A DNA stretch of 64,000 bases from Euglena gracilis (taxonomy: Eukaryota), in assembly GCA_039621445.1 (NCBI GenBank), contig CP154954.1, positions 19,888,642 to 19,952,641 on the forward strand. The letters are read 5' to 3'. Positions within the stretch are counted from its first letter, which is position 1. Each line of letters opens with the position of its first letter. Shown in pieces: positions 1 through 59,657 of the stretch. The translations under genes and the position numbers were made by a program. The notes below the pieces were generated by a model. That model ran no database searches and was not told where the DNA came from. It saw nothing but the letters and a program-made list of their open reading frames with translations.

Positions 1-34
<34 letters not shown>

Positions 35-277: not shown

Positions 278-460
278 ATGGAGGGACATTGCTGCAGGGT
301 TCCCTGCTGAGGAGGCTCTGGGCACTGAAGTGCAGGCGTGGTACAACCGGCTGCCGGCAGGGTCTGCCGCCACGGACAACGTGCCGGCTGGCGAAGCGGT
401 TGGCGGCGCCGCAGCCAGTCCACCCGATGCCCAGCGACCGGATGAGGCCCTGTGGACTGA
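278..460 (+). CDS. Possible exon of an upstream gene of unknown function
   Basis: GC-rich, coding-like stretch (WRDIAAGFPAEEALGTEVQAWYNRLP) after ttgacag; no motif recognised; boundaries approximate. Confidence 0.3.
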
Positions 461-510
461 ATCAATCTGCAATCCCCGCCCTTTTCTGGAAGTCGGAGAC
501 TGGTTGCAAC

Positions 511-611
511 CAGGGTTCAGTATAAGGAGGGTTTACAGGGTTCAGGAGGAGGGGGATGCCCCCCATCCCCCCCCCTGACCCTCCCTCCACCTGCCCTTAT
601 ATTGAACCCTG
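511..611. mobile_element. Short MITE of the CAGGGTTCRATATAAGG TIR family
   Basis: cagggttcagtataagg ... ccttatattgaaccctg inverted termini; imperfect flanking repeat ggttgca; same TIR family as 63130-63574. Confidence 0.7.
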
Positions 612-746
612 GGTTGCAGATCAGGAGAGTGAGAACTGTTAGGGACCGGTGCTGAATCTGAACTCCGGCGTTATTTTTCTCCAAGATTGCTTTCTCCTTC
701 TTTGTGCAATTTTTTTTAATTTTTTCAACTCAATTTAAAAACGGCC

Positions 747-1288
747 ATGGTCGTGGTTGGGGGCAGAGGTTTTTTAAGTTTTGTGCAGGCAGTGCTTCCG
801 GGCACTGCCTCGCCCCGGCCCTGTTGTCCAGCAGCAACGCCGCCCCGACTGCGCCAGCCCCCACCCAGAAGGTGCCTGCCCGTTTGCCCCGGAGCACGCC
901 TCTCCAGCTCCCCCAGCCCGTCCATTTGCGTCACGGCTGCTCAACACAGACTTGGCAACAGTTTCCTCCAGTACGGTGCTGCTTTCCCCTCCCGGGCAGG
1001 CAGGGGACTCGCGTCCCTCGTTCAGGACCGCCCTGGCAGCCCGGCGTTCCACGCCCCCGTGACCCCGAGGACCTCTGGCTTGGTCCGCAGTTTCCAAAGC
1101 GACGGTCCCTGGACCGTACGAGTTGAGCCCCCACTGCAGTATGATGGGGGCTGGGGGGTTTTGTTTTTTTTGTTTCCTGCAGCTGTTCTTACAACGATCA
1201 TTTTTTCCTGGGGAGGGGAAAGAGTGCCGAATGCCATGTCGGATTCACATTTGAACGCACATGCAATTGCCCATTCCCTGATGCATGG

Positions 1289-1359
<71 letters not shown>

Positions 1360-2722
1360 CGCGCATTCGTGCCAGTGTGTCTCTCTTGGCATGGTTGAAA
1401 GTTCGATTGTGCAGAAATACACACACATACATATACATATAACATGCATGCACATATGTTTATACATTATATACATATATGTATGTGTATAATCGAACCT
1501 TCAACCATGCAATTATATATATATTCAACTCTACATGTAATTCAATTATATATTTTATTGCAGGCGCATTTTTCACACCTCGGGTTGGGTTGGAATTTCC
1601 TTCAGCTGAATAATGGGATGCCCCAGACCCCACGTGACACCGCGCTTGAGAATGCGCTGCGTGTGTTGCGCACTGTCCCGTTCGCTGTTGTCTTGGAGGT
1701 GCGGGACGCTCGCATCCCACGGTCAACACACAGGGAGCTCTGGCACCCCATTTTTAAATCAATTTTGAGCTTGACGAGGGCAGGACCACAAGAGCTGCGC
1801 TCCTGCAATGTGCGGGGGAGTGTATGCTTTGTTTTTGATGGGCCCGAGGCCATGGGCTCAGAAGAGCAAAACCCCCTCTCAATATAAAGCTCCCCCAATA
1901 TACACCCTCCAAATATAAGTCCCCCCCGATATGCAAGCAGATGATGGTGCCATTCAGGAAAAATTGCAGAATTTGGGGTGTATACCACATTTTTTCCCTC
2001 CAGAAATGCTCCTTTCTGGATAAAATTGCACATTTTTGGTGAAAATAGGAGGTGCACAACGAAAATTTGGCATAACGTTGGTATTTGACTGCAGTTGAAG
2101 GCCGCCAATGTTTTTATAGTCCACCCAGAAAGTTTGATTCCCCTCCCCCCCCCAATTATATTGCCCTCCCCAGAGGGTATTGAAATCGGTTCACATGGGG
2201 CTTGTTGATTGCGACCATAAAGCAGGGAGCATCCGAACGGGGGGGGGGGGCATCCAATTGAATCACCCGGACCACGGCTGTACGGAATCCCCAAACCCCT
2301 GTGGATGGTGGGTGGCCTTTCCGCCTTTCCGGGGGTGCCAATTTTTAGCCCAGAATTTTCCTTCGGCGCCACCGGGCAGTGCAGTGCTGTGATGGGGGGT
2401 CGCCCCCCCCCCCACCTCCCGGCTGGGGAGGTCGACCGCCCTCCCGCCCGGCCTTCCAGTGCCGCCCTGCCCCCCCCCACCCATTTCTTTCAGTCGTGTG
2501 GCAGTGGGGGGGGGGGGCTGCTGGCCCCGGCCTGTCCCCCTGCGGCCGGCCCACCCGCTGATCGGCAAGGTGGCCCGCCAGGCGGCGGTCCACTTCGTGG
2601 TCTTCACCCATGCAGACCTCCTGCCCCCCGCGGAGCTGCAGCGCGTCACCCGCTGGGCACTGCAGGAGGCCCGTGACAAAGTGGTGTGTGTGGTGTGTGT
2701 GTGTGTGTGTGGTGTGTGTGTG

Positions 2723-2818
<96 letters not shown>

Positions 2819-5800
2819 TGTGTTTTTTTTTTTTTTTTGTTTTTTTTTTGTTTTTGTTTGTGTTTTTTTTTTTTTTTTTTTGTGTTTGTTTTTGTTTTTT
2901 TTTTTTTTTTTTTTTGTGTTTTTGTTTTTTTTTTTTTTGTTTGTGTGTGTGTGTGTGTGTGTGTGTGGATGTGTGTGTGCGCGCGCACGCGTGGGTTGGT
3001 GGGTGGGTGGGTGGGTGGGTGGGTGGCCCATTTTCCCCCGCAGCTTGTGTTTGAATTTGTGCATCTGCACCTGAGCAGCCTGTTTTTTTTTAAGAAAAAA
3101 AGGCACAGAGGGTACGTTTCTGATGTTATTCAAGCCTCCAGCCAACATTCCAATTTTTTGTGTTTCATCTGATCATGCTTGTTGTATTGTTATCTCAAGT
3201 TGAATTTAAATATCCGACCAATTTTGATACTTTTCTGTTGGCCTGTCAAGACAGAGGGGATGATCCTGATTTTTCTGTGTTTAAAACTCTGGTCTTGCTG
3301 TGATAGTTATCTGAGCTGAGATTTGCAAATCTACTTTTCTTCCACTGGGGTTTTCTGTTATCAGCCTGTTGTTGCATTAATTTTTCTTATTCTCTCTCGA
3401 ATCACTGGGCAAGCCATCGCTTGCTTGTGCAATCCTAGGACCCACGTCCACCCGGGTATGAAGAGGATATCAAATGTAATGTACGGAATGCGAATAGAGC
3501 ATGAGGAGTCATGTTCACCGTTGTAAGACAAAAGGACGAAAGCGGCAGATGTACTGTGGTGGGGAAGGTCTGGGGAATGGAAATGCAGGCCCGGGTACTG
3601 GGGAGCAGCGCTGCAGCAACCAAACCGCATAAATCCACCTGATACAACAGAAACAAAGTGTGCCGGATCATAATTATGTCGCCAGACTCCCAAACAGCAG
3701 ATCACACAAGAGTGAAATGGAGGACCCATATGATATGATATAATAGATTTGGAAGATTGAAATAGACAAAAAAGGGGGAGATGGAACAATGCATGAGAAT
3801 CAATGGCAACTGATGGAAAATTTTGTGTGGAAAGCCTGATAAATTTGACAATGTAACTTTGCGGGTGGAGCCCTGTGGTGAATAAATGAGTGGGTGTGGG
3901 TTGTGGGGGTGGTGGGTGTGGGTGTGGGTGTGGGTGTGTGTGTGGGTGTGTGAGTGGGTGTGTGGGTGCGTGTGGGTGTGGGTGTGGGTGTGTGAGTGGG
4001 TGTGTGGGTGGGTGGCTGGGTATGGGTGCATGTGCGGGTGGGTGGGTGGGTGGGTGGGTGTCTCTGCACCAGCCCCGGAACATGCCACCAGTGGGTTGCC
4101 CCCCCCCTCCGTCCCCCTTCAGCGGCAGCACGCCACCTCCGTGTGGTTCGTCAACACAAAGGACGCCCTCACCCTGCCTCAGCGGGAGACGCAGCGCGCC
4201 TTCGGCCGCCTGTACGAGGCGCTGGTGGAGGCATGCCGGCCGGGCCCCCATCGCTGCGATGGAACCGAAGCCGTTCACGGCGGCAACCTTTACCTGGCAG
4301 TCCACTGCTTTGTGGTGATCCCCCATGGGCGGACTGTTTGGTTTGGTGTTGGCTTTTCGGGCTGGCTGGTTTTTTTTTTGGAGTGACTGATTTGGTTCCG
4401 GACCCCCCCCCCAAGAGGGTCGGCAAGGAGTGGCAGAAGGTGATACACCAGGTGTTGAAGGCGCCAGAGGTGTTTTTTTGGGGGGGATGGTCAAATCAAT
4501 TAATTTTAGGATGGATTGGCTGCCCCCCCCCCAAGTAGGGAGGTCGGATGTGAGTGAGTGGTTTTCAAGTGAAGGGACTTTTCCTCTGGGTCGGTGAGTA
4601 GGTGAGGGCCCTGTGCCGATCGCCTCTTCAGTCATTTCGGGTTGGGACAGCGAGTTTTCCAGAAAACACGTTGGAAGAAATCAAGCCAATCATCGCCAAT
4701 AGATGTATAAAAAAATTGATGTCTGAGCAGAGAGGGAAAGGAGGAACCATCAGAGAGGGGGGGGTGCACGCGGCGAGGGGAGGGTAAGGGCCTTGGAGAA
4801 GTGACACCTGGTGCCCACTGTGTCGAGACAGGAGGAAGTGGTCCCGTGGTCCCAATTGAATTGCCAACCATCTCTCTTAAAAAAATGACCAAAACTTGCA
4901 CCAAATGCGCCATAAAAAAGGAGGATTTTTTTTGAGGGGCTAAAAAGGCCATTGTTTGGCCTCAATTTTTTCATCTGTCTTGGGGAGGGGTCATTAGGGG
5001 GGAGGCCTTTAAAAATTGTCATCTGCACAGGGGGGAGGGGTGGTCCCCAAAGAAACACCAACTGTACTACCAACGCTCCCCTGGGCATACTGTGTCAACT
5101 CCCCTGAGAAGCTGTGTCAAAAAATAAGAAATAAAATAAAATACAAAGAAAATTGAAGGAAAAAACATCGAACCATCAAAGAATTAAGAGAAATTATCAA
5201 AATGGTGACGACCTGCTTTCAGAAAGCAACTTTGTGGTGGGGCTCAGAGGTCCCGGAAAATAAAAACAGCCCATTTGGGGCATTTTTTGACCCACGACCA
5301 GACAGGTGGGAGGGGGGGCTGCCCGGTCAGACATTCCAGGGCGCTCCCCCCCCCACCTCCCCCCCCCCGGGTTGGTCAAATTCAGCCGGATGGGGGCCCC
5401 GGAGCGGCGCACGGCGACCGGGATGGTGCTGGTGGCCGGCACGCCCAACGTCGGGAAGAGCAGTCTCGTGGCGATGCTGACGAAGGAGCTGACCGCCAAG
5501 CGGCGCAAGAAGGTCCGCCGGGCCCTCTCTCGGTTGGGGGGGGGGGCGGCCTCGACTGCCCCCCCCAGAGCTGTTTGGGAATCCCCGAAACCCTATGGGT
5601 GGCGGGTGGTGGGTGGTGAGGGAGTCAACCCCCCCCCACCAGGCCCCACCAGGCCGCATCGCCCTGCCCGCCCCAACCGAACGGCCGCCAGGGGTGGGGT
5701 GGAGGCGGCAGAGCGGACGACTGCACTCAACCCCGTGCACGTTTGGCACTCAAACCGGGTGTTGTGGAGCCAAGTATTCCGCCGACACGGGATATTTGGC

Positions 5801-8800
5801 TCCACAGAAACCCGAGTTTGGGGCTGTGGGCTAAGTGTCAATGGAATTTCACCGGAATTGAAAAGTGGTCATTCACTGACGGAATATATGTTGACTTAAA
5901 AGAAGAATGAAGGAGCTGTGCAGCTTCCCACTGTATGTTCTTTTTTTGTTCTCTGGCTTTTCAAGCTTGTGCTTTGACAATCACATTTTGCAATTTCTGT
6001 GTGTACGGTGAATTTTAGATTTTCGCCCATTTTGCATGTGTTAAATTTGGCATTTGTGAGACAGTTTTTTTGCTCGTTGTCAAAAATCGCCTTTTACTTT
6101 TGACCCTTCCGCAGGAAGGCTTTTTTTCGGTTCAATTTTTCAGCAAAATAATAATGGAGACCCCAAAATATGACCCTTGGGATTTTAGCAACTTACCCCA
6201 AAAGGATATTTGGGTCTTATTTATTTAGGGGGACTGCGTGACACATGCTATTTTCCCATTTCCCAATCACGTTAGAACACAGAAGATCCCGAACATTTCG
6301 GGGCATGCCCGCAGTCATTGGCCTTCCATGCCAGCCTCCGCCCCCGCCTTCAATCGGCCCGCCCCTGCGCAGGGGAAGCACCACGTGCCGCGGATCGTCA
6401 ACGCAGCAGGCACCACCCAGGGCAACACGAAGCACTGCTTCATGGAGGACCCACTGCTGTACATGGTGGACACCCCCGGCCAGGACGGCGGGGGGGGAGG
6501 GGGGCGGGTTGGGGGCCAGGCAGGTATTAGGTGAGCGTTGGCTTTGTACAAGGGGCGGGGGGGTCCAACCGCCCCCCCAGGGGGGGGGTGCGGACCATCC
6601 CTCTCTCCAGCAGGCCGGGGGGGGGGGGGGGCTGGGGAACCCCATAGAACCAAAATATCTTTTTCTCAGCGTTTTGCACCCCAAAACTTGTGTTTTTTAT
6701 CACCCAATCTCCCCCGCCCTGCAGCCGGCCTCATGCTGCCACAGGAGGTGTTCCACACCAATGCGGAGCTGTACTTTATGTTGCGGATGATGAACAACTG
6801 CTCGGAGTTCCCCGGGCACGACCCTTATGTATGGCGCTGCCTGCGATGGCTCCTGAACTGGTCAGCTTGAGCATCAGGGCCAAGGTTTTTTTCAGCCTTT
6901 TCGCCTTTGACTCTTTAGAGAGGACCCCAACCATACCGATGGTTCCTACCTGTTCCTCCGACCTGTTCCTGATTCCTGATTTTATTAATTTTTCACTCTC
7001 GAAAAAAGATGTCTATTTTGTTGCCTGGTGAATTTTTTTATGAAAAAAAACTCAACGATGTTTTACAAAGAGTTCAATCTCAATTGGACTCAAGAGTTTT
7101 CTTTGGCTACAGTATTTTAAACTCCATTTCCAGAATGTTGGGCTAAAATGTGACATCTCAAAACAGCATGTTCTGAACAGATTAACCGTTTGATCTCTGG
7201 AACCCTTAAAATGGGAATTCGACTTGGAAATTCATTTCGTGCATTTTTTTTTGCTTTTCTGCGGCTTCGTGCCAAGGATTGGGATGGCAGAGTGGACCTG
7301 CAACGGCCCCCAAAACAGGCCCCTCGAACCCCCACTCCCAGATCAGTGGATACCGCCAAACCGGAGGTTCTCATGTCCAGCCGGGGTAACGTTTGCACCG
7401 CAGAACGCGCCTTCTTTCAACGCTCGACCTAATCATTCCCCTTATTAACTGGTCCATCCAGCCAGCCGTTTTTTTTCTTTAGAACAATCTCCCGTCCGCC
7501 GCGCCTCCGCCACGCCGGCACACGCACGTCACAGGTGTTCTGCGAGTACCTCATCTGGAAGTGCCGCCGCCTCCGCTTCACGTCTTGGCTGGCCGACCTC
7601 CGCCTGCCGGACACCGCCACGGACGTCAACCTCATCCTGGACCGTATGGACCCGGACCCCGTCCCCGAGAGGCGGCCAGGGCTGCGGCTGGAACTGGGCA
7701 GCAAAGGGTTGGTTGCCATGGTGGGGTGGTGGAACCACAATGTGAGTTAAGAATCTGCACCACACAATGTAGGACATCCGACACACAACCTGATGCCCAT
7801 CATGACCGCCGGGGTTGTAGGGTTCTGTTTAATACTCCCTGGGGCTGTTAAATGTTTGCAAAAAAATGTTTTTCATTCTTGAAATAAAACATATAATTAA
7901 AATAGGAGTATAACATGGATAACAGGATATAACGAGGCCTTGTCGAAAATTTTGAGCTTTTTCAAAAAAATAAAAAGGATGGTTTGTGTGAGCCATGTGC
8001 ACCTATTTTTTGGCGTGAGATATGAAATTAGTGTGTTTGCCCTGCTGTTTCAATTTCATTCCCTCTGGAGCTTCTAAATTCCAAATTCTAAATTAAGTTT
8101 CAGTGATTAGAGGGGGATAAGTAGGGGGAGGTGAAGATTGGATGGGAAAGTTTGCTATGAAAAAGTTCTGCACAAAATATCTGCCAGATTTCTTGCCATG
8201 TTAAGGATCCGTCCAGGATTTTCCCGCAACTTTTGCAACAAAGAAAAAAGCACACTTCGTGCCAACTTTTGATATCTGGAACTCCAATCTGCTTATTCAC
8301 AAGTCTCTTGGTTTTTATTTGCGAAAAGGCAATTATTTTGTATTACTTTGTTTCGCCTGTAAAACTTAGGTTTCCTTTTGAATTTTTGGAGAGAATAACT
8401 TGTGCACCCATGTTTAAAGGATTTCCATGAGGATTCAAAGGATATTTTCCTGGATGAAGATTCACTAAGTTGCAAAACTTGTCAAGGTCATTTTTATATT
8501 TGGTACTTTCTCAGACGCATGGGTTAACTTGTTTCTTTCTCTTGGTATTTGCGCTAAAAAAAAATGAGACTCCTGACACGGCACCCAGTTCAATGCAATG
8601 AAACATAGCAAACAGCAGACCACAGTTTACATTTTTGATGAACATTTTGAGGAACAACGATGAACAAAAATGCGCGAAGCATCAGAGAATTGGTGCCTGT
8701 AAGTGGCATGAGATCGGCATGCGCAAACAATAAAACAACCCATACCTTTACAAGTTGACCATCCAGTGGAGGTATGTGGCCAGACTGGAGGCATCGCTGC

Positions 8801-10124
8801 CGCTGCCCCTTCAAAAGGGGGGAGAGCGGGAACGAAGGGACTGTGCGTCGCTCAGCCCAGCCCTGGGACGGAGCCAATACCGCCCGCCGCTTCCATGAAA
8901 TGCTGCTGGGGAAGGGCCTGGCCGGGCTCGTGTGCGACGACCTGCCTGCCCTGCCCGCCGAGGCCAGCTCCGCCCTGGCGCCGTATGAAGGGATACTCAT
9001 GTGCAAAGTGCAACTGCACGCAGACGTTTGTTTTGCCATGCAATGCATGCGTGTGAATGTAAGCAGGAGAGTTGGGTGAGCACAGATGTCCAAAGTCGTC
9101 TGTGCTCACCCAACTCACCTTCCCGCACGCACATGCACGCAAAGGCATGCACACACACACACACACATCACATCACATCACATCACATCACATCACATCA
9201 CATCACATCACATCACATCAAGCAGGCAGACGCCTGAATGTATCCATATGCAGTCCAATTGCATCATACATTTTGAAACCTACTGCACGCAGCACGAAAA
9301 TCACCGCTGGAGAGATTACTGGCAGTGGCTGAAAACTCCCCCCCCCCCCTAGGGCCGCATTTTTCGGACCATTTCAGGGGGGGGGGATTTTCGGACCCCT
9401 GGGAGCTCAAGCCCCGCCCGTGTCACAGAGAACCATGGAATCTGAACCTAAGATGGACATAGCACCTGTTGGTGCACGAAACTCAAATATGGCTGTTTGT
9501 TGAAGACCATTTTGCATTGGACTACAACATTTGTTTCATGATGGTTCACAAGGACAAAAAATCGCTACCACGGCATGTATAAAAAAAAGAATTCCTTCCA
9601 AAAAGCCCTTGCCTTGCGCCTTTGTTGACTTTTTTGGAGGGGGGACCGGGCTTTTTCAAGGGGGGGGAAATTTTCGGACCCCTGGAAGCATAAGGTAGAA
9701 CCGCCAAAATCTGGCCGATTTGAGGGGGGGGAATTTTCGGGGGGGGGGGGTTTCAGCCACTGCCAGTAATTGTCATCCTGATCATGCTGGGTAAATTGTC
9801 AATCGTTTTTTATATAAAAACCAAAACGGCTTTCGTTAATTGTCTTTCCATTAAAATAGCCGCGCTTCTATTGGGACGGGGGGGGTTCGCCCTCAGAATG
9901 ATCACACACATGGATCACGGGGGGTGGGGGGTGGCGGCTGGTCGGGGGGCATTCGCCGCCCTTCCCCCGGCTTCACCGCCGGCCCCAGCCCCGCCGCCCC
10001 GCTGCCCGTCTTCCCCGACCGGCTCGTCCTCGCCACCGACTACGAGCCGGGCCACTTCCGCGCCATCCAGCCCGTGGACCTGCCGCAGCCCACCGGGAAG
10101 GTGCCGAAGAAGCTGCAGCGCTGA
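747..10124 (+). CDS. RbgA/YlqF/MTG1-family circularly permuted ribosome-biogenesis GTPase, 10 exons: 747-1115, 1627-1727, 2548-2668, 4123-4237, 5406-5512, 6373-6477, 6727-6828, 7535-7673, 8871-8982, 9989-10124 (1407 nt, 468 aa)
   Basis: Spliced frame has EVRDARIP, a G4-position THAD, G1 GTPNVGKSS, G2 GTT, G3 DTPG and a C-terminal ARRF...G.L...CDD, in the permuted G4-G1-G2-G3 order. All nine junctions keep frame. Exon 1 and the exon 2 acceptor (1627 vs 1606) are least certain. The R/S/P-rich N-terminus may be a mitochondrial presequence (inference). Confidence 0.85.
1627..1727 (+). CDS. GTPase exon 2 (RDTALENALRVLRTVPFAVVLEVRDARIPRS)
   Basis: EVRDARIP motif typical of YlqF/MTG1. Confidence 0.85.
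1728..2547 (+). other. Nonconventional (euglenid-type) intron 2
   Basis: ACA-CAGGG ... CCCTG-CGGCC; removal gives in-frame RST-AHPLIGK. Confidence 0.8.
2548..2668 (+). CDS. GTPase exon 3 (AHPLIGKVARQAAVHFVVFTHADLLPPAELQRVTRWALQE)
   Basis: G4-position motif; probable GC donor GAG|GCCCG (alternative GT donor at 2681). Confidence 0.8.
4123..4237 (+). CDS. GTPase exon 4 (RQHATSVWFVNTKDALTLPQRETQRAFGRLYEALVEAC)
   Basis: C-rich tract plus ttcag acceptor; in frame with both neighbours. Confidence 0.75.
4238..5405 (+). other. Nonconventional intron 4
   Basis: 5' GGGCCCCCATC pairs with 3' GATGGGGGCCC in the +5/-7 register; splice gives EACRRTATGMVLVAGTPNVGKS. Confidence 0.75.
5406..5512 (+). CDS. 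GTPase exon 5 with P-loop (GTPNVGKSS)
   Basis: G1 motif; GT donor AAG|GTCCG. Confidence 0.9.
6373..6477 (+). CDS. GTPase exon 6 (GKHHVPRIVNAAGTTQGNTKHCFMEDPLLYMVDTP)
   Basis: G2 and G3 motifs; gcgcag acceptor. Confidence 0.9.
6478..6726 (+). other. Nonconventional intron 6
   Basis: GGC-CAGG ... CCTG-CAGCC; splice gives DTP|GLMLP. Confidence 0.85.
6727..6828 (+). CDS. GTPase exon 7 (GLMLPQEVFHTNAELYFMLRMMNNCSEFPGHDPY)
   Basis: Continues DTPG; GTATG donor. Confidence 0.8.
7535..7673 (+). CDS. GTPase exon 8 (VFCEYLIWKCRRLRFTSWLADLRLPDTATDVNLILDRMDPDPVPER)
   Basis: tcacag acceptor; GC-rich third codon positions. Confidence 0.8.
7674..8870 (+). other. Nonconventional intron 8
   Basis: 5' CCAGGGCTGCGGCTG pairs with 3' CAGCCCAGCCCTGG; splice gives ERRANTARRF in frame. 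Confidence 0.8.
8871..8982 (+). CDS. GTPase exon 9 (ANTARRFHEMLLGKGLAGLVCDDLPALPAEASSALA)
   Basis: Resembles the RbgA/MTG1 C-terminal A..F...R.G.LG...LD motif; GTATG donor. Confidence 0.8.
9319..9766. mobile_element. TA-flanked MITE (Tc1/mariner-type) in GTPase intron 9
   Basis: ta|ctggcagtggctgaaa ... tttcagccactgccag|ta perfect TIR. Confidence 0.8.
9989..10124 (+). CDS. GTPase last exon (PAAPLPVFPDRLVLATDYEPGHFRAIQPVDLPQPTGKVPKKLQR*)
   Basis: ccccag acceptor in the matching phase 2; ends at TGA. Confidence 0.7.
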
Positions 10125-11342
10125 CGGGACTGTGACAGTGCCGCGGTTGTCCGAGGCAACCACACAGTCCGTGGGTCGGTTTGCGTGGTGCACAGTCTGG
10201 GGGGACCCCGGCCTGACTTCGCATCGAAGGTGTCCGAGCTGCTGGGTTATGGAACTCAGGGTTGCAAGAACCACAGGAACCATCCCACTGCTCAGCCTGT
10301 GCCTCGTGGAAGTGACCGGTTGTTGTAGTTTATTCCCAACGTGGTAGGGAAGTAAGAGTCGATTCCTGAAATAGCCAAGGTGATGCACCTCAGGAACTAA
10401 TGGCTGATGAGGCTTCACAATGAAGAAGAAAGTGAATCCTCCCCCCAAAACAGTCAGGGCATAGATTTGCCATTTTGCTTGAGTGAGCAGAAGACGACAT
10501 ATGTGTATTTTCATTCCTAGGTCGGTTGACAAATCGTTTTCTGAGGAGCTGGATTCAGGAGAGAGCTTGGATGTCAGGTGTATGTGGTTGTATGATGGGC
10601 AATGCTATTTTGGTCTTGGACATCTGTTGCTGTCCGTGTTTTTGGGGGGGAGAAGAGGAATGGTGTTAGGCTCACGGGTTTAAGCCAAGTTTTCAAGACA
10701 TCCACCCATCCATAATCAAAACCTCAATGTCACACTTTGCCTGTGTACCATGCATCATTGAATAGCCGAGAAACCTTTTGCTGGAGCACACCACTCCGAC
10801 CCCATCCAGGGGTTTTCTGAAGCCGGCGGGGACCCTGCTGCCCGGGGGGGGGGGGTCCAGCCAGCCAGCACCTTTTTCCAGTCAGCACCTCCCAGTTGGG
10901 CTGCGGACCCCCCCCAGGGGTCCGCGAAATAAGTTCAGGCCAGCCCCGCAAAGCTGGCCTGGACCAAAAAGTTTTCGGCGCATTGCGCCAAAAAAAATTG
11001 GGAAAAGCGGGTCAAAAATGGCCAAAATGGTGATTTTTTGGGGTATTTTTCCGCCCAAATTTGGCTGAAAAACTCCAACCCAGCTGGATTTGGGCTTTTT
11101 TTTTGCTTTTGGGGCATTTTTTTTGGGTAGCCACAGGGTCCAGCTGCCAGCCGGGTTCGAACCACCCCTTCCTGGGCCCCCATCCCCAGGGAAGGGTCCA
11201 GCCAACACCTTTTTCCAGCCGGCCCACGGGATATCCCCCGGTCCTCAAGAAAACCCCAACCCCATCAAACCCAACCCACCAACCCGGCCAGAATCCCCCC
11301 ACCCACCCATCTCCTTCCGCAGTTCCCGCCTCTCCTTGCCCA

Positions 11343-13447
11343 ATGGCGTCCAGGGAGGCGATGCCCCCCCACGAGCTGGCGACCCTGTTGGACCTGGTCA
11401 AGGCGAAGCGGTCTGCCCCAGCCAGCCAGGTAGGGGTTGCGGTGGTCTCAGGAGACTCCGGGCGATGCTGGTATTCCAGTGTGCCAGCCAGATGAGTGCC
11501 TACGGGCGAAAAAAAAATATGCGGATGTAATAGATTTTTGCAAATTCGTACAAATTTTGAAAGAATCTGGGACCAAAAATGTCAGTACCACTGGGCCAGC
11601 AAACCTGGGCCCATGTAAACCCGTCATATAGCCTTCAAACTGGAAACCGATTGTTCCCATTATGTACCCCTGGATAGGTGTTCCAGTGTGCCGGCCGGAT
11701 TAGTGCCTACGGGCGCACGCACACATATGCGCGTGCACGCGCGACACATTCTGGTCTAACGTCGTGGCGCATCTGCCCCGGAGCTTCGGTCCACGTTTGT
11801 GTTGCATGCGTTGGCGTTGGTGTGTTGGCGTGGAGGTTGCGCTTGGCTTGTTTGAAAACGGGTGGATTGTTTCAAAGCAGACAGTCGTCCCACCTAGAGG
11901 TTGGGAGCGAGGGTCCGGTAAAAAAATTTATTCTGACGCACAGCACCAGAAAATAAGCAAAAAAAATCATTTTAGAATCATTTTCAAAGAACAATCAGGA
12001 TTTTTAACCAATTTTGGCCTGGTTTCCAGGCTTTTGCCAGTCCACAAAACCAAATATTTTCCCGGTCCCCTTCAGTTTCCCCTTCAGTTTTGAGGTGGGG
12101 GGGGTCCGGCCCACCTCCTTGTTTAGAGGGGTCCGGACCCCCCCCAGTGCACATTTTGGCGACGACTGCCCGAACATCCCTCACTGCCCCCCTCCCCCCA
12201 CCACGCCCAACCCTGGGGCCACTCTGACGGCGGAGGAGGCGACCCAGTACTGGCTGGACATGGCGGTGGAGGAGGTGAACACGCAGGCCCTCGCCGCGGA
12301 GACCAGGCTGGATTTTGAGGCGAGGTCGACCCCACCCCGGGCGGCTGCCTGCGTGCCGGGGTAGGCACTCCAGGGCAGGGGGGGTCCCTTCAGGGCAGGG
12401 GGGGGTTCGCCACATGGCCAAAGTTCCTGGGCACTCAGCCAAGGCTCTTCCGGCACCAAAGTCATTGGGAGTCCAGGAATGGTCTGCTTTTTGAGCACTT
12501 TCTTTGTGGCCCACAACCAGGCAGACACAACCCCCTGGGGGGCTCCCCGGGTTGGTCAAATGCAGCCTGTCACAGGCGGAGGTGGAGAGGCTGCGGAAGG
12601 AGCTCGCAGCGACGACAACAAAATGGGGCCGATGTGGCGGCCAACCTGAGTTTTGAGGCGGCGCCAACCCCACCTGAAGGGGGGGGGGGGTCTGCCTCGG
12701 CGCGGGCAGGAAGTAACCCCCAAAAAATGGATTTTCCCCAAGGCAGTGTTGGTCGTTATGTAGACAGCGCCGTGGGCACGGACTCATCGTAACACCTCTG
12801 ACAATGGGGGGGGGGGCTTTATGGGGCGAAGCCAGCTACACATCGCAGCAACGACAAAAGAGGGAGGGACCGGGAGTGGATCGCTTACCTGGTTGCCCTG
12901 AACGAGGTCCAAGGCACTCCATGCCTCTGATTGGCTGACCCTCGGCCCGGGCAGTGGCTTCCATTGTTCTTGCCCACTTTCGTTTCCTTGACGAAAGCAC
13001 CTTTCTCTTCAGCACATCCCCACTCGATAAATTGCAACGCAGTCTTGAAACAAAACAGGCCGGATACCCATTTTCTTTCAATCATGAAGATTCCGGATCA
13101 GCTTGTGATTGCTCTTTGTAACAAACCAACAGTTTGCATTTGATGGGTGGGCAGGGGTTTTTTTTAGTCTCGGACCCCCTCCTCCCCCCCGGGGGAGAAG
13201 GGGGCCGGGGGGGGGGGCACCCCAGGGGGTGGGTGGGTGGGTGCCAACCCCCTGCCCCCCCCTGGTCTTAAAAAACCCCCCTGTGGGCGGGGTTATGGAT
13301 CTGGCCAGGACAGCCGCCAGGCCAGAAACGAGCAGCTCCTTGCCAGGTGACATGGCACAGCACGTGGAGCGGCGGCGCACCGAAATTATGGAGTTGGAGA
13401 AGGATGTTGCGGAACTGGAAGCGAATATCAACCATCCTGTCGCTTGA
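11343..13447 (+). CDS. Coiled-coil protein of unknown function; exons 11343-11423, 12221-12319, 12576-~12660, ~13347-13447; possibly frameshifted or a pseudogene
   Basis: MASREAMPPHELATLLDLVKAKRSAPA | TLTAEEATQYWLDMAVEEVNTQALAAETRLDFE | AEVERLRKELAA ... VERRRTEIMELEKDVAELEAN. Nonconventional intron 11424-12220 (AGC-CAGG...CCTG-GGGCC) and GC-AG intron 12320-12575 both keep frame; the 3' part is unresolved. Confidence 0.55.
13152..13283. mobile_element. hAT-like MITE with CAG...CTG termini
   Basis: caggggttttttt ... aaaaaacccccctg; 8-bp TSD tgggtggg/tgggcggg. Confidence 0.75.
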
Positions 13448-43201: not shown

Positions 43202-43430
43202 CAGGCTGTTTGTTACCAACCCGGGGGGGGGGGAGGGAGGGTCCTTTGAAAATGGGCCATTTTTGGCTCCCCGGCGCCTTTGGCGCCGGGTCTGTGCTAG
43301 AGGGCACTTTTGGCCGTGTGCCCTACATCCCCCCGGGGGGGGGTCGGATCGGGAGTGCCTTGGAGTGCCTGCCCAGGCAGGCACTCCCCCCCCCCGGGGT
43401 GGGGTCGGCACCCGACTAAAATACGGCCTG
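43202..43430. mobile_element. hAT-like MITE, CAGGCTGT family
   Basis: caggctgt ... atacggcctg; perfect 8-bp TSD gaggggtg. Confidence 0.88.
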
Positions 43431-45787: not shown

Positions 45788-46072
45788 CAGGCTGTTTTTA
45801 CCAACCCCGGGGGGGGAGGGGGGGTCCGGAGTGCCTGCCCAGGCAGGCCCCCCCGGGGGGGTCGGATTTCGGCCTGTGCCCAGGCACATTCCTTTGAAAA
45901 TAGGGTATTTTTGGCTCCCCGGCGCCGGGGTTGTGCTTGGGCACTTTTGGCCGTGTGCCCAACCCCCCCGGGACCGGGGGTCGGATTGGGAGTGCCTTGG
46001 AGTACCTGCCCAGGCAGGCACCCCTCCCCCCCCCCCCGGGGTGGGGTCGGCACCCGACTAAAATACAGCCTG
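45788..46072. mobile_element. hAT-like MITE, CAGGCTGT family, second copy
   Basis: Same termini and internal sequence as 43202-43430; TSD atgggaag/atggggag. Confidence 0.85.
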
Positions 46073-52690: not shown

Positions 52691-54333
52691 GTGTAATATA
52701 TATATATATAGAATAATATTATAAGATTGTATTATTTCTTTTATATATTTATACATAAGAATATATAAATTCTTATATGTTATAAAATAATGTATAAGAA
52801 TGTGGGCAGGAGGGGGGGTTGGACCCCCCTGCAGTCCTGCAGGGAATTGGGAGGACACCCCCGACTCCTGAACAGTGGCGCAGTCAGGGTGACCGAAATT
52901 CAGCCCGGAGCGAAGCACTGGGCCGAAAAAGTTTGCCCCCCTCGGCCAAATCTGCCATTTGGGGCACGTTTTGGGGCAAAAGAATTGCCAAAAATACCAA
53001 AAAATTTTCTGTGGAAAGTGCCGGCAGAAAAAAAAATGACCTTTTGGGGGAGGGGTCGGGTATCCCTCCTGGGGTCGGACCTGGCAGGTGGGGCAGGTGG
53101 GGGGGGGGTTTAAGGCACCTTTTTTTGAAGGTGCCTTAAAAAAAATACTTAAACCTTAAACTGTCTCAAAATCCTTAAAAAATCTTAAACCTTAAACCGC
53201 CTCAAAATGCACCTGAATTTTTTTGCCAAAATACCTGAAAAATGCCCCAATGATCAAAAATTGGGGGGTTTTTCTGCAACCAAGCAAAAATGAAATGTGC
53301 AGAATCTTGGGGGAAAAAATCAAATCCAGGAAGGAAAAAAATGGTTTCTGGCATCGCTGGATCATTGTCCATCCAACCAAAACTCCAAAAAAATGCATTT
53401 CTTGACTTTTTAAAAGCCTCAAAATTTGGAAAAAAATTAGCCTGAAAAATAACAATCATGATGATCCCTGGTGGTCTGGACCAGGCACCTATGGTCACTT
53501 TCCATTTTGGTGCTCTGGTCGGCCCTGGTCGGCAAATAGTCGGCCATAGGTGGGGGTATCCGTCACAGAAAAAAAGATCGTGAAAAATGACCCAAAATTA
53601 CCAAAAGGGCACAAAATGGCCAAAATGCCATAAAATATGCTCATGTTGACCCAAATTAGCCCAATATTTGCCAAATCAGTGACTGCGGTCGGCTGAAAAT
53701 GGTTAAAATGGCCAAAAATGGGCAAAAGCCAAAGAAAAGCTGTTTTGGCCACTGTTTTTGCGAATCCAGAAGCTGCACCTGGCGCAAAATGCTCAAAAAT
53801 GGTCAAATTGGACCAAAAAAAGACAAAAAAAATGGGCAAAATAACAAAAAAAAGGTCGAAAATGGCTTTAAATGGTCAAAAATGGCCCAAGAGCAGGACA
53901 AAATGGCCCAAAATTACAAGAAGTGCGCAAAAAGTGGCCAAAAATGGTCAAAATAGGTCAAAATTGGTGAATTATGGTGACAAATGGGCCAAAAGGAGAC
54001 AAAAGCGACCTAAAATGGCCAAAAGCGGCCAAAAGTAGCCAAAAGTAGCCAAAAGTGACAACATGAGCCAGATGAGCCAGAAAAATCTCAAAATCTGGGA
54101 TAAAAATGAGCCCAATTCCTCATTCTCACTGAAAAATTGACATCAATTAGAAAAAAGTTGCGCGGTCGGCTGCGGTCGGCTGCGGTCGGCTGCGGTAACC
54201 CACGGTCGATGCTGCCGGGCCAGCATCGCCCTGCATCGCACAGCACCGCCCAGCATCATCAGAGGTGCTTGGTCCAGAGGGAAAGCTGCTGAATTCCTTC
54301 ATCCATTCCCCTTCCGTCGGCCAACCATATGCA

Positions 54334-54470
54334 AGTCGGCCCTGGTCGGCCCTGGCCGGCCCTGGTCGGCCCTGGTCGGCCCTGGTCGGAACCCCCACCT
54401 ACGGGGGTCCTGAAACTCATAGTCGGCCCTGGTCGGCCCTGGTCGGCCCTGGTCGGCCCTGGTCGGCCAT
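54334..54470. repeat. (GGTCGGCCCT)n 10-mer tandem repeat
   Basis: Directly visible; related units at ~53515-53550. Confidence 0.8.
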
Positions 54471-56962
54471 AGGTGCCTGGTCTGGACCCCTTCCGGTCCA
54501 GGAGGGAGGAGGTGGAGGAACACCCTCCCCACTCTGACCCGCACACCGTCCATGTATCAAATCCTGGGGTGAGGTTTGTTTTGAGATCTACAGAGCAACC
54601 CCCCAGAAAACCTTCAAAAAACAACATTTTGTCCACGTTTGAGCCCTTTCTGCCAAAAGAATTTGTTGAGTCGTACCAATGTTTTTTTCAGCTCCCGACT
54701 GCACTGGGCTGGCCCAAACTTTATTCCAGCGGATCCTGGAGGGGGGGGTCGGCAGTCTGGCTGGGAGCTGCTGACTGGGTGCTGGGCTGACCCCACCCCT
54801 GTGGTCACCTCCGGATTAAGAAAACCCCTCGTTGTCGCTCTGGGGTAAAAAAAAGCCCAGGGGAAAAATTGGAGGGCTTTTCAAGGACATGAAATTTTGG
54901 ATATTCGTGGGACAAAAGCAGGAATTATGACTGTCAAATTGAATTGAAAATCAAATCAGGTGCCAACACAAGAATATGAATTTTCAGGTCCCAAAATCAG
55001 GAATCACCTCCAAAATTTTGTCAAAATGATGGAGAAAACGGTGAATTTTTTTGGGGGGAAATGTAGTGATAATTTTGGAGGCCAAAACTGAAAATACGGG
55101 GGGGGGGGGGGGGGGGGGAATTTCCTTTTGCTAATTCGTTCACCCCAATTTTGTGCGCCTCTGATTTCCTCCCTACAGAGGGGGTCCGGGGGGACCCACT
55201 TCAGGGGGGTCAATTTTCGGACCAAACACCGAAAGTCGTAAAATCAGCCAGTCGGTGAAACAAAAAGAAAACCCCCGGGGGGGGTTTGCATTTGACCCCC
55301 GAAGGGGGGTTGGGCCCAGGGCTGTATGGGAATGCCGGGTGGGGGGTGGTTGACCCCCCACCAGGGGTTTTTTAAGACCGGGGGGGAGGGTGTGTCCCCC
55401 CCACCCACCCCCCCCTGGGGGGGGCCCGGGGGGGGGGGGGGTCCCAGGGGACCCACAAAAAAAAATGGCCGAAAATCGCGAAAAGTGCCAAAAATAGCAC
55501 TTTTTCAAGAATTTTCGGCGCCTTCGGTGCCGAAAAGTATATATCACCCCCCTCGCGGGGGGGACCCCCCGGGGGGGGCCCAGGGGGTGGGTGGGTGGGT
55601 GGGTGGGTGGGTGGGGGGGAGACCCCCCACGGTCTTAAAAAAAACCCCTGGCTGTACGGGAATCCCCGCAACCCTGTGGGTGGGGGGCAGGGTTATTTTT
55701 TACTCGTGGACCCCGGGGGGGGGGTGGGTGGGTGCGGCTGAGCCCCCCCCCCCCCCTCCCGGGGGACCCACAAAAAATGGCCGAAAAATCGCGGAAAGTG
55801 CTAAAAATAGCATTTTTCGGCGCCTTCTGCACCAAAAAGTATATCCCACCCCCCTCCGGGGGACCCCCCCAGGGGGGCTCGGCCGGACCACCCACCCTAC
55901 CCCCCCCCCGGGGGGTCCACGACTAAAAAAACCCTCTGCCCCTGCATACAGCCCTGGTCAGGCCTCCGGGCAAACCGTGGAGCAAAGGCATGGTCCGTTG
56001 CCGGGAGACCCGCTCCTCCTGCTGCACCTCTGTCAACATCCGTCCCACCCAGGGAATGTCTCAAGCCCGCCCCCCCAGAGGGGAGGAACCCAGCCGGCTG
56101 GAAGGTCCTGGGCAGAAAAAAGGTGCTGGCTGGACCGCCCTAGGGGGGATCCGGGGGGGATTCCTACCGGCTCCCGGGCTGGACCTGGAGGGAACCCCAA
56201 AAACCGTCAAAAAAGCCTAAATCCAGCTGGGTTGGATTCTTTTCAGCCAAATTTTGAGGAGTCAAAAAACAACCAAACCTGGACATGTTTGGCCATTTCG
56301 GACCCCTTTTTTAAAATTTTCGGATTTTTTTTTTGTCCAGCCTGGCTTCAGCAGCTGCGAAAACTTTATTACTGCTCGAACCCGGGTGCTCCGCAGCGCG
56401 GCTGGGAGGTGCTGCCTGGAAAAAGCTTGCTGGCTGGATCCCTGGGGGGGGGGGGTGAGATGGGGGGTCCAGCTTAAGAGATTCCCTGGCCCCACCTCCT
56501 CCTGGATTGGCCACGGGGCTTTGTTGTGACAAAAGGGTCGTCTAACGCTTCCCCAAAAAGTTTCTGGTGCTTTGCACCGGAACCAAAATCAACTTTCAGT
56601 AACCTTGGGAACCAAGACCCCGCATCAATTTCACCAGAGATCAATTTGAAAAAAATGCAGATTTCCATTCATCGGGACCAAACACCAATAGGAGTCATTT
56701 TTTCCATTCCACTCAAAAAAGTCCCAAATCCAATGAAATGATGCTCCCAATGGTTGATGAGGCTTTGTTCTGGAGTCTCTGGCGGAAAAAATCCACTGGA
56801 GTGCAAGAAAACACAACATTGAAAATCATTTGAGGGACAACAAACCAGAATTCTTTTTAACAACCCGACAGGGGAGATTGTGCTATGGGGTGCTGGACAT
56901 TCACAGATGGGTATGTATTATTGAAAATAATAACAATAATAATAATAATTGGCCGTCCTTTC

Positions 56963-58748: not shown

Positions 58749-59657
58749 CGGTAGACTGGGGGGGGTAGTGGGTAGTCGGCCGACTAGTCAGCCGACTACA
58801 CAATTGGTCGACCGACTGGGCCTGGTCGGTAGCTAGTCGGCGAGACATGGGGGGGGGGGGCAGTGGGTAGTCGGCCAACTAGTCGGCCAACTACCCACTC
58901 TAATGTACTAACGGGTCCAAACCGCCGACTTTTAAGCCCCCCCCATGAAGAAAATCCAATGCAAACTAGTCGGTGGCTAGTCGGCGGTCATAAAAATGGT
59001 CTGTGGCGGGCCCAAATCACCCGGAAATGGTCCGGATGGGTCCAAATAAGTGTCTTACGCCTGAATAAACACCCCCAGATGGAAATCTTTGGTCGGTGGG
59101 GGGTCGGTGGGCCCTTGATGGGGGTCCGGAGGTGTAAAAAACCAATGATGAAACAGGGATTACATGAAAATCCTTTAGAAATGCAACATACTCAGGGGCT
59201 AAGTCGTTTGTGGCTCACTTTGGCATAGGCGGGGGGGGGGGGGGCTCCGCCCCCCCCCCTCAAATAACAAAATCCCTTCTATGTTGGCAATAGACTTGGA
59301 GGGATAAGACCTTTTTGTGCAAATTTTGACTTATATTGAAAATCCAATGGGGAGAGGTGTTCTTTTGTCAAAAGTGGCCCAAAATGGACATTTTCCCCCA
59401 ATTTTTTTTTTGCATATTCACCCCCGATTGGGGAGTTCTGGAGCCATTTGGGTGGGTTTGACTGGTGTTGAGGTGATTTAAACAAAAGTTTTTCCGGGGG
59501 GGGGGGGGCTTAAAAGTCGGCGGTTTTGACCCGTTAGTACATTAGAGTGGGTAGTCGGCCGACTAGTCGGCCGACTACCCAATTGGTCCGCCGACTAGTC
59601 GGCCGACCAATTGGGTAGTCGGCCGACTACCCACTACCCCCCCCCCCCCGTCTACCG
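58749..59657. mobile_element. Foldback-like element with ~150-190-bp inverted termini built from palindromic gtagtcggccgactag units
   Basis: actacccactctaatgtactaacgggtc...ccgccgacttttaagcccc is inverted at ~59505-59560; no clear TSD. Confidence 0.7.

What the first reader, a model, noticed from the sequence alone, without database searches (positions are those of the whole stretch)
1728..12220. Nonconventional introns have the geometry of the local hAT-like MITEs: a candidate intron-generating (introner) system
Seen: five introns (1728-2547, 4238-5405, 6478-6726, 7674-8870, 11424-12220) lack GT-AG and consist of 3 nt + paired CAGG...CCTG ends + 5 nt (intron 4 is a variant with the same register). 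Also seen: MITEs in this window (13152, 43202, 45788, 63130) end in CAGG...CCTG and make 8-bp TSDs. Since 3+5=8, excising such an intron removes the element plus exactly one TSD equivalent and restores the exon. Residual TSD-like similarity is 6/8 (cccccggc/cagccggc, intron 6), 4/8 in two introns and only 1-2/8 in the other two. Known: euglenid nonconventional introns have this CAG/CTG consensus and a transposon origin has been suggested. Inference: these MITE families are pre-adapted to be spliced out and are the source of the introns.
Basis: partly seen in the sequence, partly recalled or inferred. Interest (0 to 1): 0.88.

Follow-up and report, generated by a model that had tools for sequence, protein, structure and literature searches.

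The report
Odd introns shaped like local transposons
In a Euglena-type gene, introns that ignore the usual splice signals have the same end structure as small jumping-DNA elements nearby, which supports but does not prove the already published idea that such elements seed these introns.

Summary
The observation mostly holds. For 11424-12220 no joint was listed, so it stays unverified. Of the 7 RNA-verified NC introns, 3 have the exact 3 nt + CAG...CTG + 5 nt layout, 3 have 3+4, and 1 has no such motif. All four named MITEs are real, and I count 12 with CAG(G) ends and 8-bp target-site duplications (TSDs).

The 3+5=8 arithmetic matches the experimentally defined Euglena NC splicing code N3-CDG...CH'G-N5-6|R (PMC12501133). 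All 11 MITEs with both ends intact fit that code in at least one orientation.

The window does not show descent. Intron ends match no MITE family, and flank identity is no higher than between unrelated introns (P 0.28).

One new lead is a family-B MITE copy at 12304-12569 that sits where an intron of the second gene is predicted. A GT-AG alternative is equally in frame there.

A MITE origin of these introns has been in print since 2013. The 8-bp TSD link appears to be new.

The parts
327..10121 (+). Gene 1: GTPase gene (MMR_HSR1 P-loop; MTG1/YlqF-like by my reading of motif order). 12 exons lie in the window and the gene continues upstream of it.
   Evidence: RNA joints and a loose end at 327. 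The joined exons give one open frame with a terminal stop. MMR_HSR1 hits exon 5405-5512 at E 2.1e-5, 25 bits against a cut-off of 21.9; the other 6 exons tested had no family.
429..811 (+). MITE 511-611 is nested inside it.
   Evidence: Joint 428->812, slide 4, 11 raw reads and 1 contig. Register.
1142..1634 (+). It has no CDG/CHG motif in register; its ends TGGGGGCTGGGG / CCCCAGACCCCA pair.
   Evidence: Joint 1141->1635, slide 3, 9 raw reads and 1 contig. Duplex -27.0 kcal/mol, z -3.6. No code placement found.
1728..2547 (+).
   Evidence: Joint 1726->2547, slide 1, 3 raw reads and 1 contig..
4238..5405 (+). A fragment like a family-B MITE terminus lies at 5340-5387, inside the intron.
   Evidence: Joint 4236->5405, slide 4, 14 raw reads and 1 contig.. 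BLAST to MITE-B termini, 79-82% over 38-48 nt.
6478..6726 (+). NC intron: ggc-CAG...CTG-cagcc | G. Flanks are 6/8 alike. Its core 6481-6721 passes the relaxed MITE criteria.
   Evidence: Joint 6475->6725, slide 6, 41 raw reads and 1 contig.. In the relaxed scan, 3 of 83 pairs passed and this core is one of them.
7674..8870 (+). NC intron: ggc-CAG...CTG-ggacg | G. Its ends pair over about 13 nt.
   Evidence: Joint 7674->8879 with 7 unmatched letters between the sides, 21 raw reads and 1 contig.. Duplex -31.4 kcal/mol.
8972..9992 (+). An inverted-repeat element (about 9315-9771) is nested inside it.
   Evidence: Joint 8969->9991, slide 5, 23 raw reads.. Nested inverted repeat.
872..1025 (+). Conventional GT..AG intron.
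   Evidence: Joint 869->1024, cut +2.
2681..4122 (+). Conventional GT..AG intron with long (GT)n, T-rich and GGGT repeats. The ends are inferred.
   Evidence: The joint row was dropped at repeats. A contig piece starts at 4123. GT at 2681 and AG at 4122 keep the frame.
5513..6372 (+). Conventional GT..AG intron.
   Evidence: Joint 5510->6371, cut +2.
6829..7534 (+). Conventional GT..AG intron.
   Evidence: Joint 6828->7535.
11424..12220 (+).
   Evidence: Register. No joint listed. No protein relatives found for the downstream exon.
511..611 (.). MITE of the same family as 63130. The flanks GGTTGCA(A/G) are offset by 1 nt.
   Evidence: Termini match M63130 at 17-18 of 20.
10807..11257 (.). MITE-like element with a CAGGGGTTTT start; the 3' CTG is lost. 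The flanking ACCCCATC is 8/8. Its interior is related to 56050-56488. It lies 86 nt upstream of the gene 2 ATG.
12304..12569 (-). Third copy of MITE family B (with 43202 and 45788), lying where gene 2 needs an intron: gac-CAG...CTG-tcaca | G. Candidate MITE-derived intron.
   Evidence: Whole-length alignment A1. Termini score 16/20 and 13/20 against family B. Code check. Flanks are 4/8 alike (read by eye). No RNA joint seen.
13152..13283 (.). MITE with TSD TGGGTGGG / TGGGCGGG.
43202..43430 (.). MITE family B with TSD GAGGGGTG, 8/8.
45788..46072 (.). MITE family B with TSD ATGGGAAG / ATGGGGAG.
53482..54479 (.). MITE-like element with TIR 13/14 and TSD GTCTGGAC, 8/8.
55317..55956 (.). MITE-like element with TIR 12/14 and TSD 6/8.
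56050..56488 (.). MITE-like element with TIR 12/14 and TSD 7/8.
58330..59899 (.). Longer TIR element (1570 bp) with TIR 13/14 and a C-rich TSD at 7/8.
60664..61073 (.). MITE with TIR 14/14 and TSD CCCCTGCC, 8/8.
63130..63574 (.). MITE with TIR 14/14 and TSD AACGGTGG, 8/8.

Best explanation
The region holds a euglenid-type nuclear GTPase gene. In the window it is cut by 7 nonconventional (NC) introns and 4 conventional ones. A small second gene follows it.

The window also carries at least 12 non-autonomous DNA transposons (MITEs). Their inverted ends begin CAG(G) and end (C)CTG, and they duplicate 8 bp of target on insertion, which is a hAT-like signature.

Proposed mechanism. When such an element lands in a transcribed exon, the two ends pair in the pre-mRNA. 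The non-spliceosomal NC splicing machinery recognises the paired CAG/CTG triplets. It cuts 3 nt upstream of the CAG and 5 nt downstream of the CTG. This removes the element plus 8 nt, which is one TSD copy, so the original mRNA is restored whatever the TSD sequence is.

I think it most likely that CAG/CTG-class NC introns descend from, and are replenished by, MITEs of this kind. On that reading the introns of this gene are old, diverged examples that no longer belong to any recognisable family.

Shown here: the RNA junctions, the intron geometry, the MITE ends and TSDs, and the fit of the MITEs to the published code. Inferred: that MITEs inserted in exons are actually spliced, and that these introns began as MITEs.
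For: - Junctions of 7 NC introns are seen in RNA, and the joined exons give a continuous open frame.
- 3 of the 7, plus the predicted one, have N3-CAG...CTG-N5|R.
- 10 of 163 CAG...CTG inverted-repeat candidates have 8-nt flank identity of 6/8 or more, against 0 of 163 in the offset control.
- A scan that did not fix the terminal letters found perfect TSDs only at CAGG...CCTG elements, all of 8 bp (53482, 60664, 63130). The other rows were palindrome or homopolymer artefacts.
- All 11 MITEs with both ends intact fit the code in at least one orientation, and 15 of 22 orientation cases fit.
- The published code came from knock-in mutagenesis. The 5' spacer must be 3 nt and the 3' spacer is best at 5 nt (PMC12501133, sections 8 and 11).
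- A recently gained NC intron in one E. agilis strain carries 8-nt direct repeats (PMC4770533).
- NC intron ends pair at -15.7 to -33.2 kcal/mol (8 introns), against -3.6 to -18.3 for 4 conventional introns and -14.6 to -40.6 for 8 MITEs.
- A family-B MITE copy lies exactly where gene 2 needs an intron, fits the code and keeps the frame.
Against: - 3 of the 7 verified NC introns remove the inverted-repeat core plus 7 nt, not 8. One has no CDG/CHG motif at all. A plain 8-bp-TSD insertion cannot give these without a further change.
- None of the 10 termini of the five CAG-type introns clearly matches a MITE terminus. Best scores are 10-14 of 20, with null median 10, 95th percentile 13 and 99th percentile 14. 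One terminus reached 14.
- No whole intron is repeated in the window.
- Flank identity of 27/53 beats random window sequence (null 13.5, P 1e-4). It does not beat pairings between different introns (null 24.8, P 0.28). It therefore reflects a shared junction consensus (roughly CC|GGC at both ends) that MITE TSDs do not show.
- The code tolerates N6, so the machinery is not strictly tuned to 8.
- For the MITE copy at 12304-12569, a GT..AG intron 12359-12575 is also in frame, and no RNA joint was seen.
- No transposase was found, so 'hAT' rests on the TSD length and the end motif only.
Confidence: 0.5

Rival explanations
1. Convergence without descent. NC introns arise by other routes, such as filler DNA at repaired double-strand breaks or conversion of conventional introns. 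They acquire CAG/CTG pairing and the 3/5 spacing only because the splicing machinery demands it. The MITEs share CAG...CTG ends and the number 8 by coincidence.
For: - Flank identity is not intron-specific (P 0.28).
- No family membership for the verified introns.
- 4 of the 7 verified NC introns deviate from core + 8.
- The authors who saw the 8-nt repeat at a new intron read it as double-strand break repair (PMC4770533).
- CDG/CH'G variants such as CGG-CCG and CTG-CAG also splice (PMC12501133, section 11).
Against: - Two independent features coincide: the CAG/CTG termini and a spacer sum equal to the TSD length.
- MITEs of exactly this type are the only ones with perfect TSDs found in the window, and there are at least 12 of them in 64 kb.
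- The MITE copy at 12304-12569 sits at a predicted intron position.
Confidence: 0.3
2. The MITEs are real but belong to another superfamily that also makes 8-bp duplications, not to hAT. Merlin is the DNA transposon superfamily documented in E. gracilis. This changes the name, not the 8-nt logic.
For: Two Merlin families with 8-bp TSDs are reported in E. gracilis (PMC8101967, passages read). No hAT transposase was seen in this window. 4 of the 12 MITEs begin CAGGC, which departs from the hAT end motif as I recall it.
Against: Merlin ends are described as starting 5'-GG (PMC8101967), whereas all elements here start CAG. The CAG start is the usual hAT end; this is recalled and was not tested by any search.
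Confidence: 0.2
3. The introns merely accumulated MITE debris. Similarity between introns and MITEs reflects ordinary insertion of MITEs into pre-existing introns.
For: MITE 511-611 is nested in NC intron 429-811, and an inverted-repeat element is nested in 8972-9992. A MITE-B terminal fragment lies at 5340-5387, 18 nt inside the end of intron 4238-5405. Short hits occur in conventional introns as well.
Against: This explains the internal similarity. It does not explain why the intron borders themselves carry CAG/CTG at +4 and -8, or why the spacers sum to the TSD length.
Confidence: 0.15

Closest known systems
Euglenid nonconventional introns (Milanowski et al. 2013/2014, PMC3935182; splicing code of Nomura et al. 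2025, PMC12501133)
   Same: Borders are not GT-AG. The ends pair. CAG sits at +4..+6 and CTG at -8..-6. A purine starts the downstream exon. Direct repeats make the borders slidable. NC and conventional introns are mixed in one gene.
   Different: Nothing essential differs for 3-4 of the introns. Three verified introns here have a 4-nt 3' spacer, which in the published assay gave only about 20% of wild-type transcript. One has no CDG/CHG motif.
hAT-superfamily MITEs
   Same: 8-bp target-site duplication, short terminal inverted repeats that begin CAG, small size (99-1570 bp), no coding capacity, several families.
   Different: No autonomous partner or hAT transposase was seen. 4 of the 12 begin CAGGC. 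The hAT end motif is recalled, not tested.
Introners: transposon-generated spliceosomal introns in Micromonas, Aureococcus, dinoflagellates and others. Huff et al. 2016 and Gozashti et al. 2022 were seen only in reference lists. The review PMC11282704 was read in passages.
   Same: A DNA transposon whose ends, together with the TSD, supply what is needed for exact removal from the mRNA.
   Different: In introners the spliceosome and GT/AG are used and many near-identical intron copies exist. Here removal would be by the non-spliceosomal NC route, and no intron family is shown.
Merlin transposons of E. gracilis (PMC8101967)
   Same: 8-bp TSDs in the same organism group.
   Different: Merlin ends begin GG. 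The elements here begin CAG.

Membership tests
Euglenid nonconventional intron | Removed from mRNA at borders that are not GT/GC-AG | tested here: met
7 joints with non-canonical ends in RNA reads.
Euglenid nonconventional intron | Intron ends pair and bring the two junctions together | tested here: met
   Duplex energies are -15.7 to -33.2 kcal/mol for 8 NC introns and -3.6 to -18.3 for 4 conventional ones. Only 3 of the 8 have z of -2.6 or lower against mononucleotide shuffles.
Euglenid nonconventional intron | Published code N3-CDG...CH'G-N5-6|R | tested here: inconclusive
   Met by 3 of 7 verified introns and by the predicted one. 3 of 7 have N4. 1 of 7 has no motif.
Euglenid nonconventional intron | Released as a full-length circular RNA | not tested
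   No circular joints were looked for. Known to me only from the review PMC11282704.
hAT-like MITE | 8-bp target-site duplication | tested here: met
   Flank identities for 9 elements are 7, 8, 7, 8, 6, 7, 7, 8 and 8 of 8. The offset control gave 0 of 163 at 6/8 or more. The bases beyond the 8 do not match.
hAT-like MITE | Short terminal inverted repeats with the hAT-type end (recalled as YARNG) | tested here: inconclusive
   All 12 begin CAG. 7 begin CAGGG, one has CAGAG at one end and CAGGG at the other, and 4 begin CAGGC. The consensus itself is recalled.
hAT-like MITE | An autonomous partner that encodes a hAT transposase with the same ends | not testable with these tools
   No whole genome is held. 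All elements in the window are 1570 bp or shorter.
Introner (intron-generating transposon family) | Many introns in unrelated genes that are copies of one element family | tested here: not met
   None of the 8 introns is repeated as a unit in the window, and their termini match no MITE family. Only 64 kb could be searched. One candidate exists at 12304-12569.
Introner (intron-generating transposon family) | Intron borders coincide with the element ends plus the TSD | tested here: inconclusive
   The geometry fits for 3-4 introns, but the flanks are no more alike than between different introns.
Introner (intron-generating transposon family) | Recent gain shown by presence or absence between strains or species | not tested
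   Only a literature case is known to me: E. agilis gapC intron 4 with an 8-nt repeat (PMC4770533).

The most novel reading that the evidence does not exclude
Euglenid nonconventional splicing is an RNA-level precise-excision system for hAT-like transposons. MITEs with CAG...CTG ends and 8-bp TSDs would be the main source of the hundreds of thousands of NC introns. The machinery would cut both TSD copies at the same position (after TSD base 5), so any such insertion in an exon is harmless on arrival. This would be a non-spliceosomal introner system. It would also explain why both junctions share one consensus and why new introns carry 8-nt repeats.
Probability: 0.4. Interest if true: 0.85.

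Novelty: new variant of a known kind. Interest (0 to 1): 0.6.

Why it matters
The origin and removal mechanism of euglenid nonconventional introns are open questions, and these introns make up 71.8% of introns in E. agilis (PMC12501133).

A MITE origin has been proposed since 2013, at a time when no transposons were known in euglenids (PMC3935182). In the papers I could search, that proposal has stayed an argument from inverted repeats.

Concrete MITE families now exist whose ends and TSD length match the genetically defined splicing code. That turns the idea into countable predictions:
- NC introns that can slide by 8 nt;
- intron families that share MITE ends;
- precise splicing of a knocked-in MITE with its TSD.

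If the predictions hold, a whole second splicing system would be explained as a host answer to one transposon class.

Tried and rejected
- Whole genome: none is held for this window, so no genome-wide test was possible.
- Run index: no RNA holder listed. RNA runs of the same species label were laid instead.
- Loose-end consensus strings were searched in the window with up to 4 changes, and one of them in 12-16-nt pieces. Only two isolated 12-nt matches turned up. The contig that leaves the window at 12596 stays unexplained.
- Protein searches with the gene 2 exon 12221-12358 found nothing. The word-index search of longer proteins had 41 candidates and none scored. The full HMMER scan gave 0 hits.
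- A metagenome scan with a 21-nt MITE-end pattern gave one contig (L001). It is a bacterial-looking contig with a repeat array, so this is a chance match and of no use.
- Earlier findings of this scan: nothing to show.
- Comparing the two large repeat copies (17.8-26 kb and 31.2-41.4 kb) for MITE presence or absence failed. They are retroelements and their indels are not MITE-like.
- Open frames across reconstructed empty sites of 12 MITEs were 131-230 codons long. They were judged not clearly coding by eye, since chance frames of this length are plausible in this G+C-rich DNA.
- Sensitive BLAST of introns against MITEs gave many short hits in both NC and conventional introns. Most are G-run/C-run modules such as GGGGTCCGGACCCC, which is 8-13 times enriched. 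The mononucleotide shuffle control (0 hits) is too lenient to count this as homology.
- A Y|R preference in MITE TSDs was checked by eye only. 5 of 11 fit in at least one orientation, which is about chance.
- Supplements of PMC12501133 and PMC4770533 (sliding-distance charts, intron tables) were not opened. They may already hold the 8-nt statistic.

Full report
WHAT THE REGION IS

The window has about 50% G+C with long (GT)n tracts. I laid three raw-read RNA runs (about 5% of each was read) and the contigs of a fourth run on 300-20299.

The reads join exons from 327 to about 10130 on the + strand. A loose end at 327 shows that the gene continues upstream of the window. Joining the RNA-supported exons gives a single open frame with one stop, at its end.

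The exon 5405-5512 carries a P-loop and hits Pfam MMR_HSR1 (E 2.1e-5, 25 bits, cut-off 21.9). The other six exons tested hit nothing. From the motif order I read the protein as an MTG1/YlqF-like ribosome-assembly GTPase. That is my inference.

The introns described below are of the kind known from euglenids, so I take the organism to be a Euglena or a close relative. No call names it.

THE FIVE INTRONS

One search lists these joints:
- 1726->2547: slide 1; 3 raw reads and 1 contig.
- 4236->5405: slide 4; 14 raw reads and 1 contig.
- 6475->6725: slide 6; 41 raw reads and 1 contig.
- 7674->8879: 7 unmatched letters lie between the two sides; 21 raw reads and 1 contig.

In the fourth, the 7 letters differ from window 8872-8878 at 3 of 7 places. 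The reads also carry many exon differences (table 3). They therefore come from a diverged allele or copy, and the joint agrees with 7674-8870 give or take 1.

For 11424-12220 no joint was listed. Depth there is about 0-0.5, and 18 joints were not shown. Two protein searches with the downstream exon found nothing. This intron remains a prediction based on frame.

The same gene has three more RNA-verified non-GT-AG introns: 429-811, 1142-1634 and 8970-9990 (slide 5). It also has four conventional introns: 872-1025, 2681-4122 (ends inferred), 5513-6372 and 6829-7534.

I placed each NC intron on the published code N3-CDG...CH'G-N5-6|R:
- 1728-2547, 6478-6726 and 7674-8870 fit with N3 and N5 and a G at the exon start. 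So does the predicted 11424-12220, with an A.
- 429-811 (CAG/CTG), 4238-5405 (CGG/CCG) and 8972-9992 (CTG/CAG) have N3 but only N4.
- 1142-1634 has no such triplets, although its ends pair well.

The 3+5 layout therefore holds for 3 of 7 verified introns.

THE MITES

A scan for CAG...CTG inverted repeats (at least 11 of 14 matching, 50-2500 bp apart) gave 163 candidates. Ten had 8-nt flanks alike at 6 or more of 8. None of 163 did in a control that used flanks offset by 10 nt.

The bases outside the 8 do not match.

A second scan fixed no terminal letters (exact 9-nt inverted seed, exact flanking repeat). It found perfect duplications only at three CAGG...CCTG elements, all of 8 bp. Its other rows were palindromic or homopolymer artefacts.

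Three more elements came from other evidence: 511-611 (same family as 63130, nested in intron 429-811), 10807-11257 (3' CTG lost, flanks 8/8), and a copy found by alignment (see below). That makes 12 elements in 64 kb, in several families that share little beyond CAGG.

All 11 with both ends intact satisfy the published splicing code in at least one transcription direction, and 15 of 22 orientation cases do.

DO THE INTRONS DESCEND FROM THESE MITES?

(a) Termini. The first 20 nt of each end of the five CAG-type introns were compared with the 24 terminus strings built (two of these, for the 10807 element, were misplaced). The best scores were 10-14. The null from 2514 other CAG-starting 20-mers has median 10, 95th percentile 13 and 99th percentile 14. 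One of ten termini reached 14. That is no family membership.

(b) Whole-intron repeats. None is present in the window.

(c) Flank identity. Taken in register, it is 27 of 53. That is far above random window sequence (13.5 +/- 3.4, P 1e-4). Pairing the left flank of one intron with the right flank of another gives 24.8 +/- 2.8 (P 0.28). The likeness is therefore a junction consensus shared by all these introns, roughly CC|GGC on both sides. It is not an intron-specific remnant of a duplication. The MITE TSDs do not show that consensus.

(d) The core of intron 6478-6726 passes relaxed MITE criteria. So do 3 of 83 pairs in the first 14 kb, and one of those looks spurious.

(e) Internal similarity. 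Short BLAST hits between introns and MITEs are frequent, but they also occur in conventional introns. Most are G-run/C-run modules.

(f) A new lead. Region 12304-12569 aligns over its whole length with MITE family B (43202, 45788), in reverse orientation (alignment A1; termini 16/20 and 13/20). It reads gac-CAG...CTG-tcaca|G, which is the code exactly. Removing 12301-12574 keeps the frame of the predicted gene 2. However, a GT..AG intron 12359-12575 is in frame as well, the flanks are only 4/8 alike, and no RNA joint was seen. It is a candidate, not a case.

WHAT IS IN PRINT

- Milanowski et al. proposed a MITE-like origin in 2013 from the inverted repeats alone. They noted that no transposons were then known in euglenids (PMC3935182, passages).
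- The 2016 paper reports an intron present in one E. agilis strain only, with 8-nt direct repeats. The authors read this as double-strand break repair (PMC4770533, passages).
- A 2024 review speaks of TIRs at +4..6 and -8..-6 and of 'TSD-like' repeats. The passages I read give no length for those repeats (PMC11282704, passages).
- Nomura et al. 2025 defined the code by knock-in mutagenesis. The 5' spacer must be 3 nt. The 3' spacer is best at 5 nt and tolerates 6, and 4 nt gave about 20% of wild-type transcript. 61.2% of NC introns fit the code and 84.4% of all introns are slidable. They repeat the MITE idea without data (PMC12501133, abstract and sections 5, 8, 11, plus discussion passages).
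- Merlin elements with 8-bp TSDs and GG ends are documented in E. gracilis (PMC8101967, passages).
- Five full-text searches turned up no paper that links the 3+5 spacers to an 8-bp TSD or describes CAG-ended MITEs in Euglena.
- I did not open supplements. Fig. 1B and the datasets of the 2025 paper may already contain the sliding-distance statistic.

MECHANISM AND RIVALS

My best reading (0.5) is that CAG/CTG-class NC introns come from hAT-like MITEs. The ends pair in the pre-mRNA, and the NC machinery cuts 3 nt before the CAG and 5 nt after the CTG. Both TSD copies are thus cut after their fifth base, and the element leaves with exactly one copy.

The structure is shown here. The splicing of MITEs and the descent of these particular introns are inferred.

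The main rival (0.3) is convergence. In that view, introns of other origin are shaped by the machinery, and the match with MITEs is a coincidence of two features. The N4 introns, the motif-less intron and the lack of intron-specific flank identity speak for it.

Two side issues remain. The superfamily could be Merlin or another 8-bp-TSD group rather than hAT (0.2). The internal similarity could be ordinary MITE debris in old introns (0.15).

VERDICT

The underlying hypothesis is 13 years old. The new element is the concrete MITE population with the right ends and the right TSD length, plus one candidate MITE-family intron. The window cannot prove descent, but a genome-wide count could settle it quickly.

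Noticed in passing
window 17788-25950 (+), 31187-41371 (-), 28002-31169: Two large inverted copies of a retroelement are 86-88% identical, and a third partial copy is 76-79% identical. Reverse transcriptase is confirmed (RVT_1, E 1.3e-22 and 3.7e-14). One ORF has a weak Dam-methyltransferase hit below the cut-off (E 6.5e-4). The second copy carries a 1656-bp insertion at 32278-33933, bounded by 296-bp direct repeats.
   Followed up: partly
window 9429-9533, inside NC intron 8972-9992: 16-23 reads per RNA run start to match at 9429 and carry about 112 unmatched letters before it. A contig leaves the window at 9533. This looks like a short transcribed piece, either an exon of another transcript or a repeat copy expressed elsewhere, sitting inside the intron.
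   Followed up: no
window 9315-9771: An element with about 26-nt inverted ends (ATTACTGGCAGTGGCTGAAA...) is nested in the intron. Its ends are not of the CAGG type, and I saw no clear 8-bp duplication.
   Followed up: partly
window 346-8957 (exons of gene 1): The RNA reads differ from the window at many exon positions, often in about half of the reads (for example 7645-7646, 8953 and 8957). They also differ at 3 of 7 bases just after intron 7674-8870. Two diverged alleles or copies of the gene seem to be expressed.
   Followed up: no
window 12596: An RNA-run contig follows the window up to 12596 and then continues for 255 or more letters that occur nowhere in the 64 kb. It may be a paralogue, a chimeric contig, or an exon outside the window.
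   Followed up: partly
window 12636-12674: A second stretch like the family-B MITE end, including 6 nt of flank, lies 66 nt downstream of the first copy (74% over 39 nt). This hints at a local duplication of exon end plus MITE start.
   Followed up: partly
window-wide, e.g. 4397, 12101-12132, 45821, 60943-61019, 63245-63534: The module GGGGTCCGGACCCC and its relatives are 8-13 times more frequent than composition predicts. They occur in MITEs and in introns alike.
   Followed up: partly
L001 400-2100: A metagenome contig, bacterial by its look, holds an array of about 270-300-bp units. Each unit contains a conserved roughly 45-nt block that happens to share 21 nt with a MITE end. It is unrelated to the finding.
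   Followed up: no
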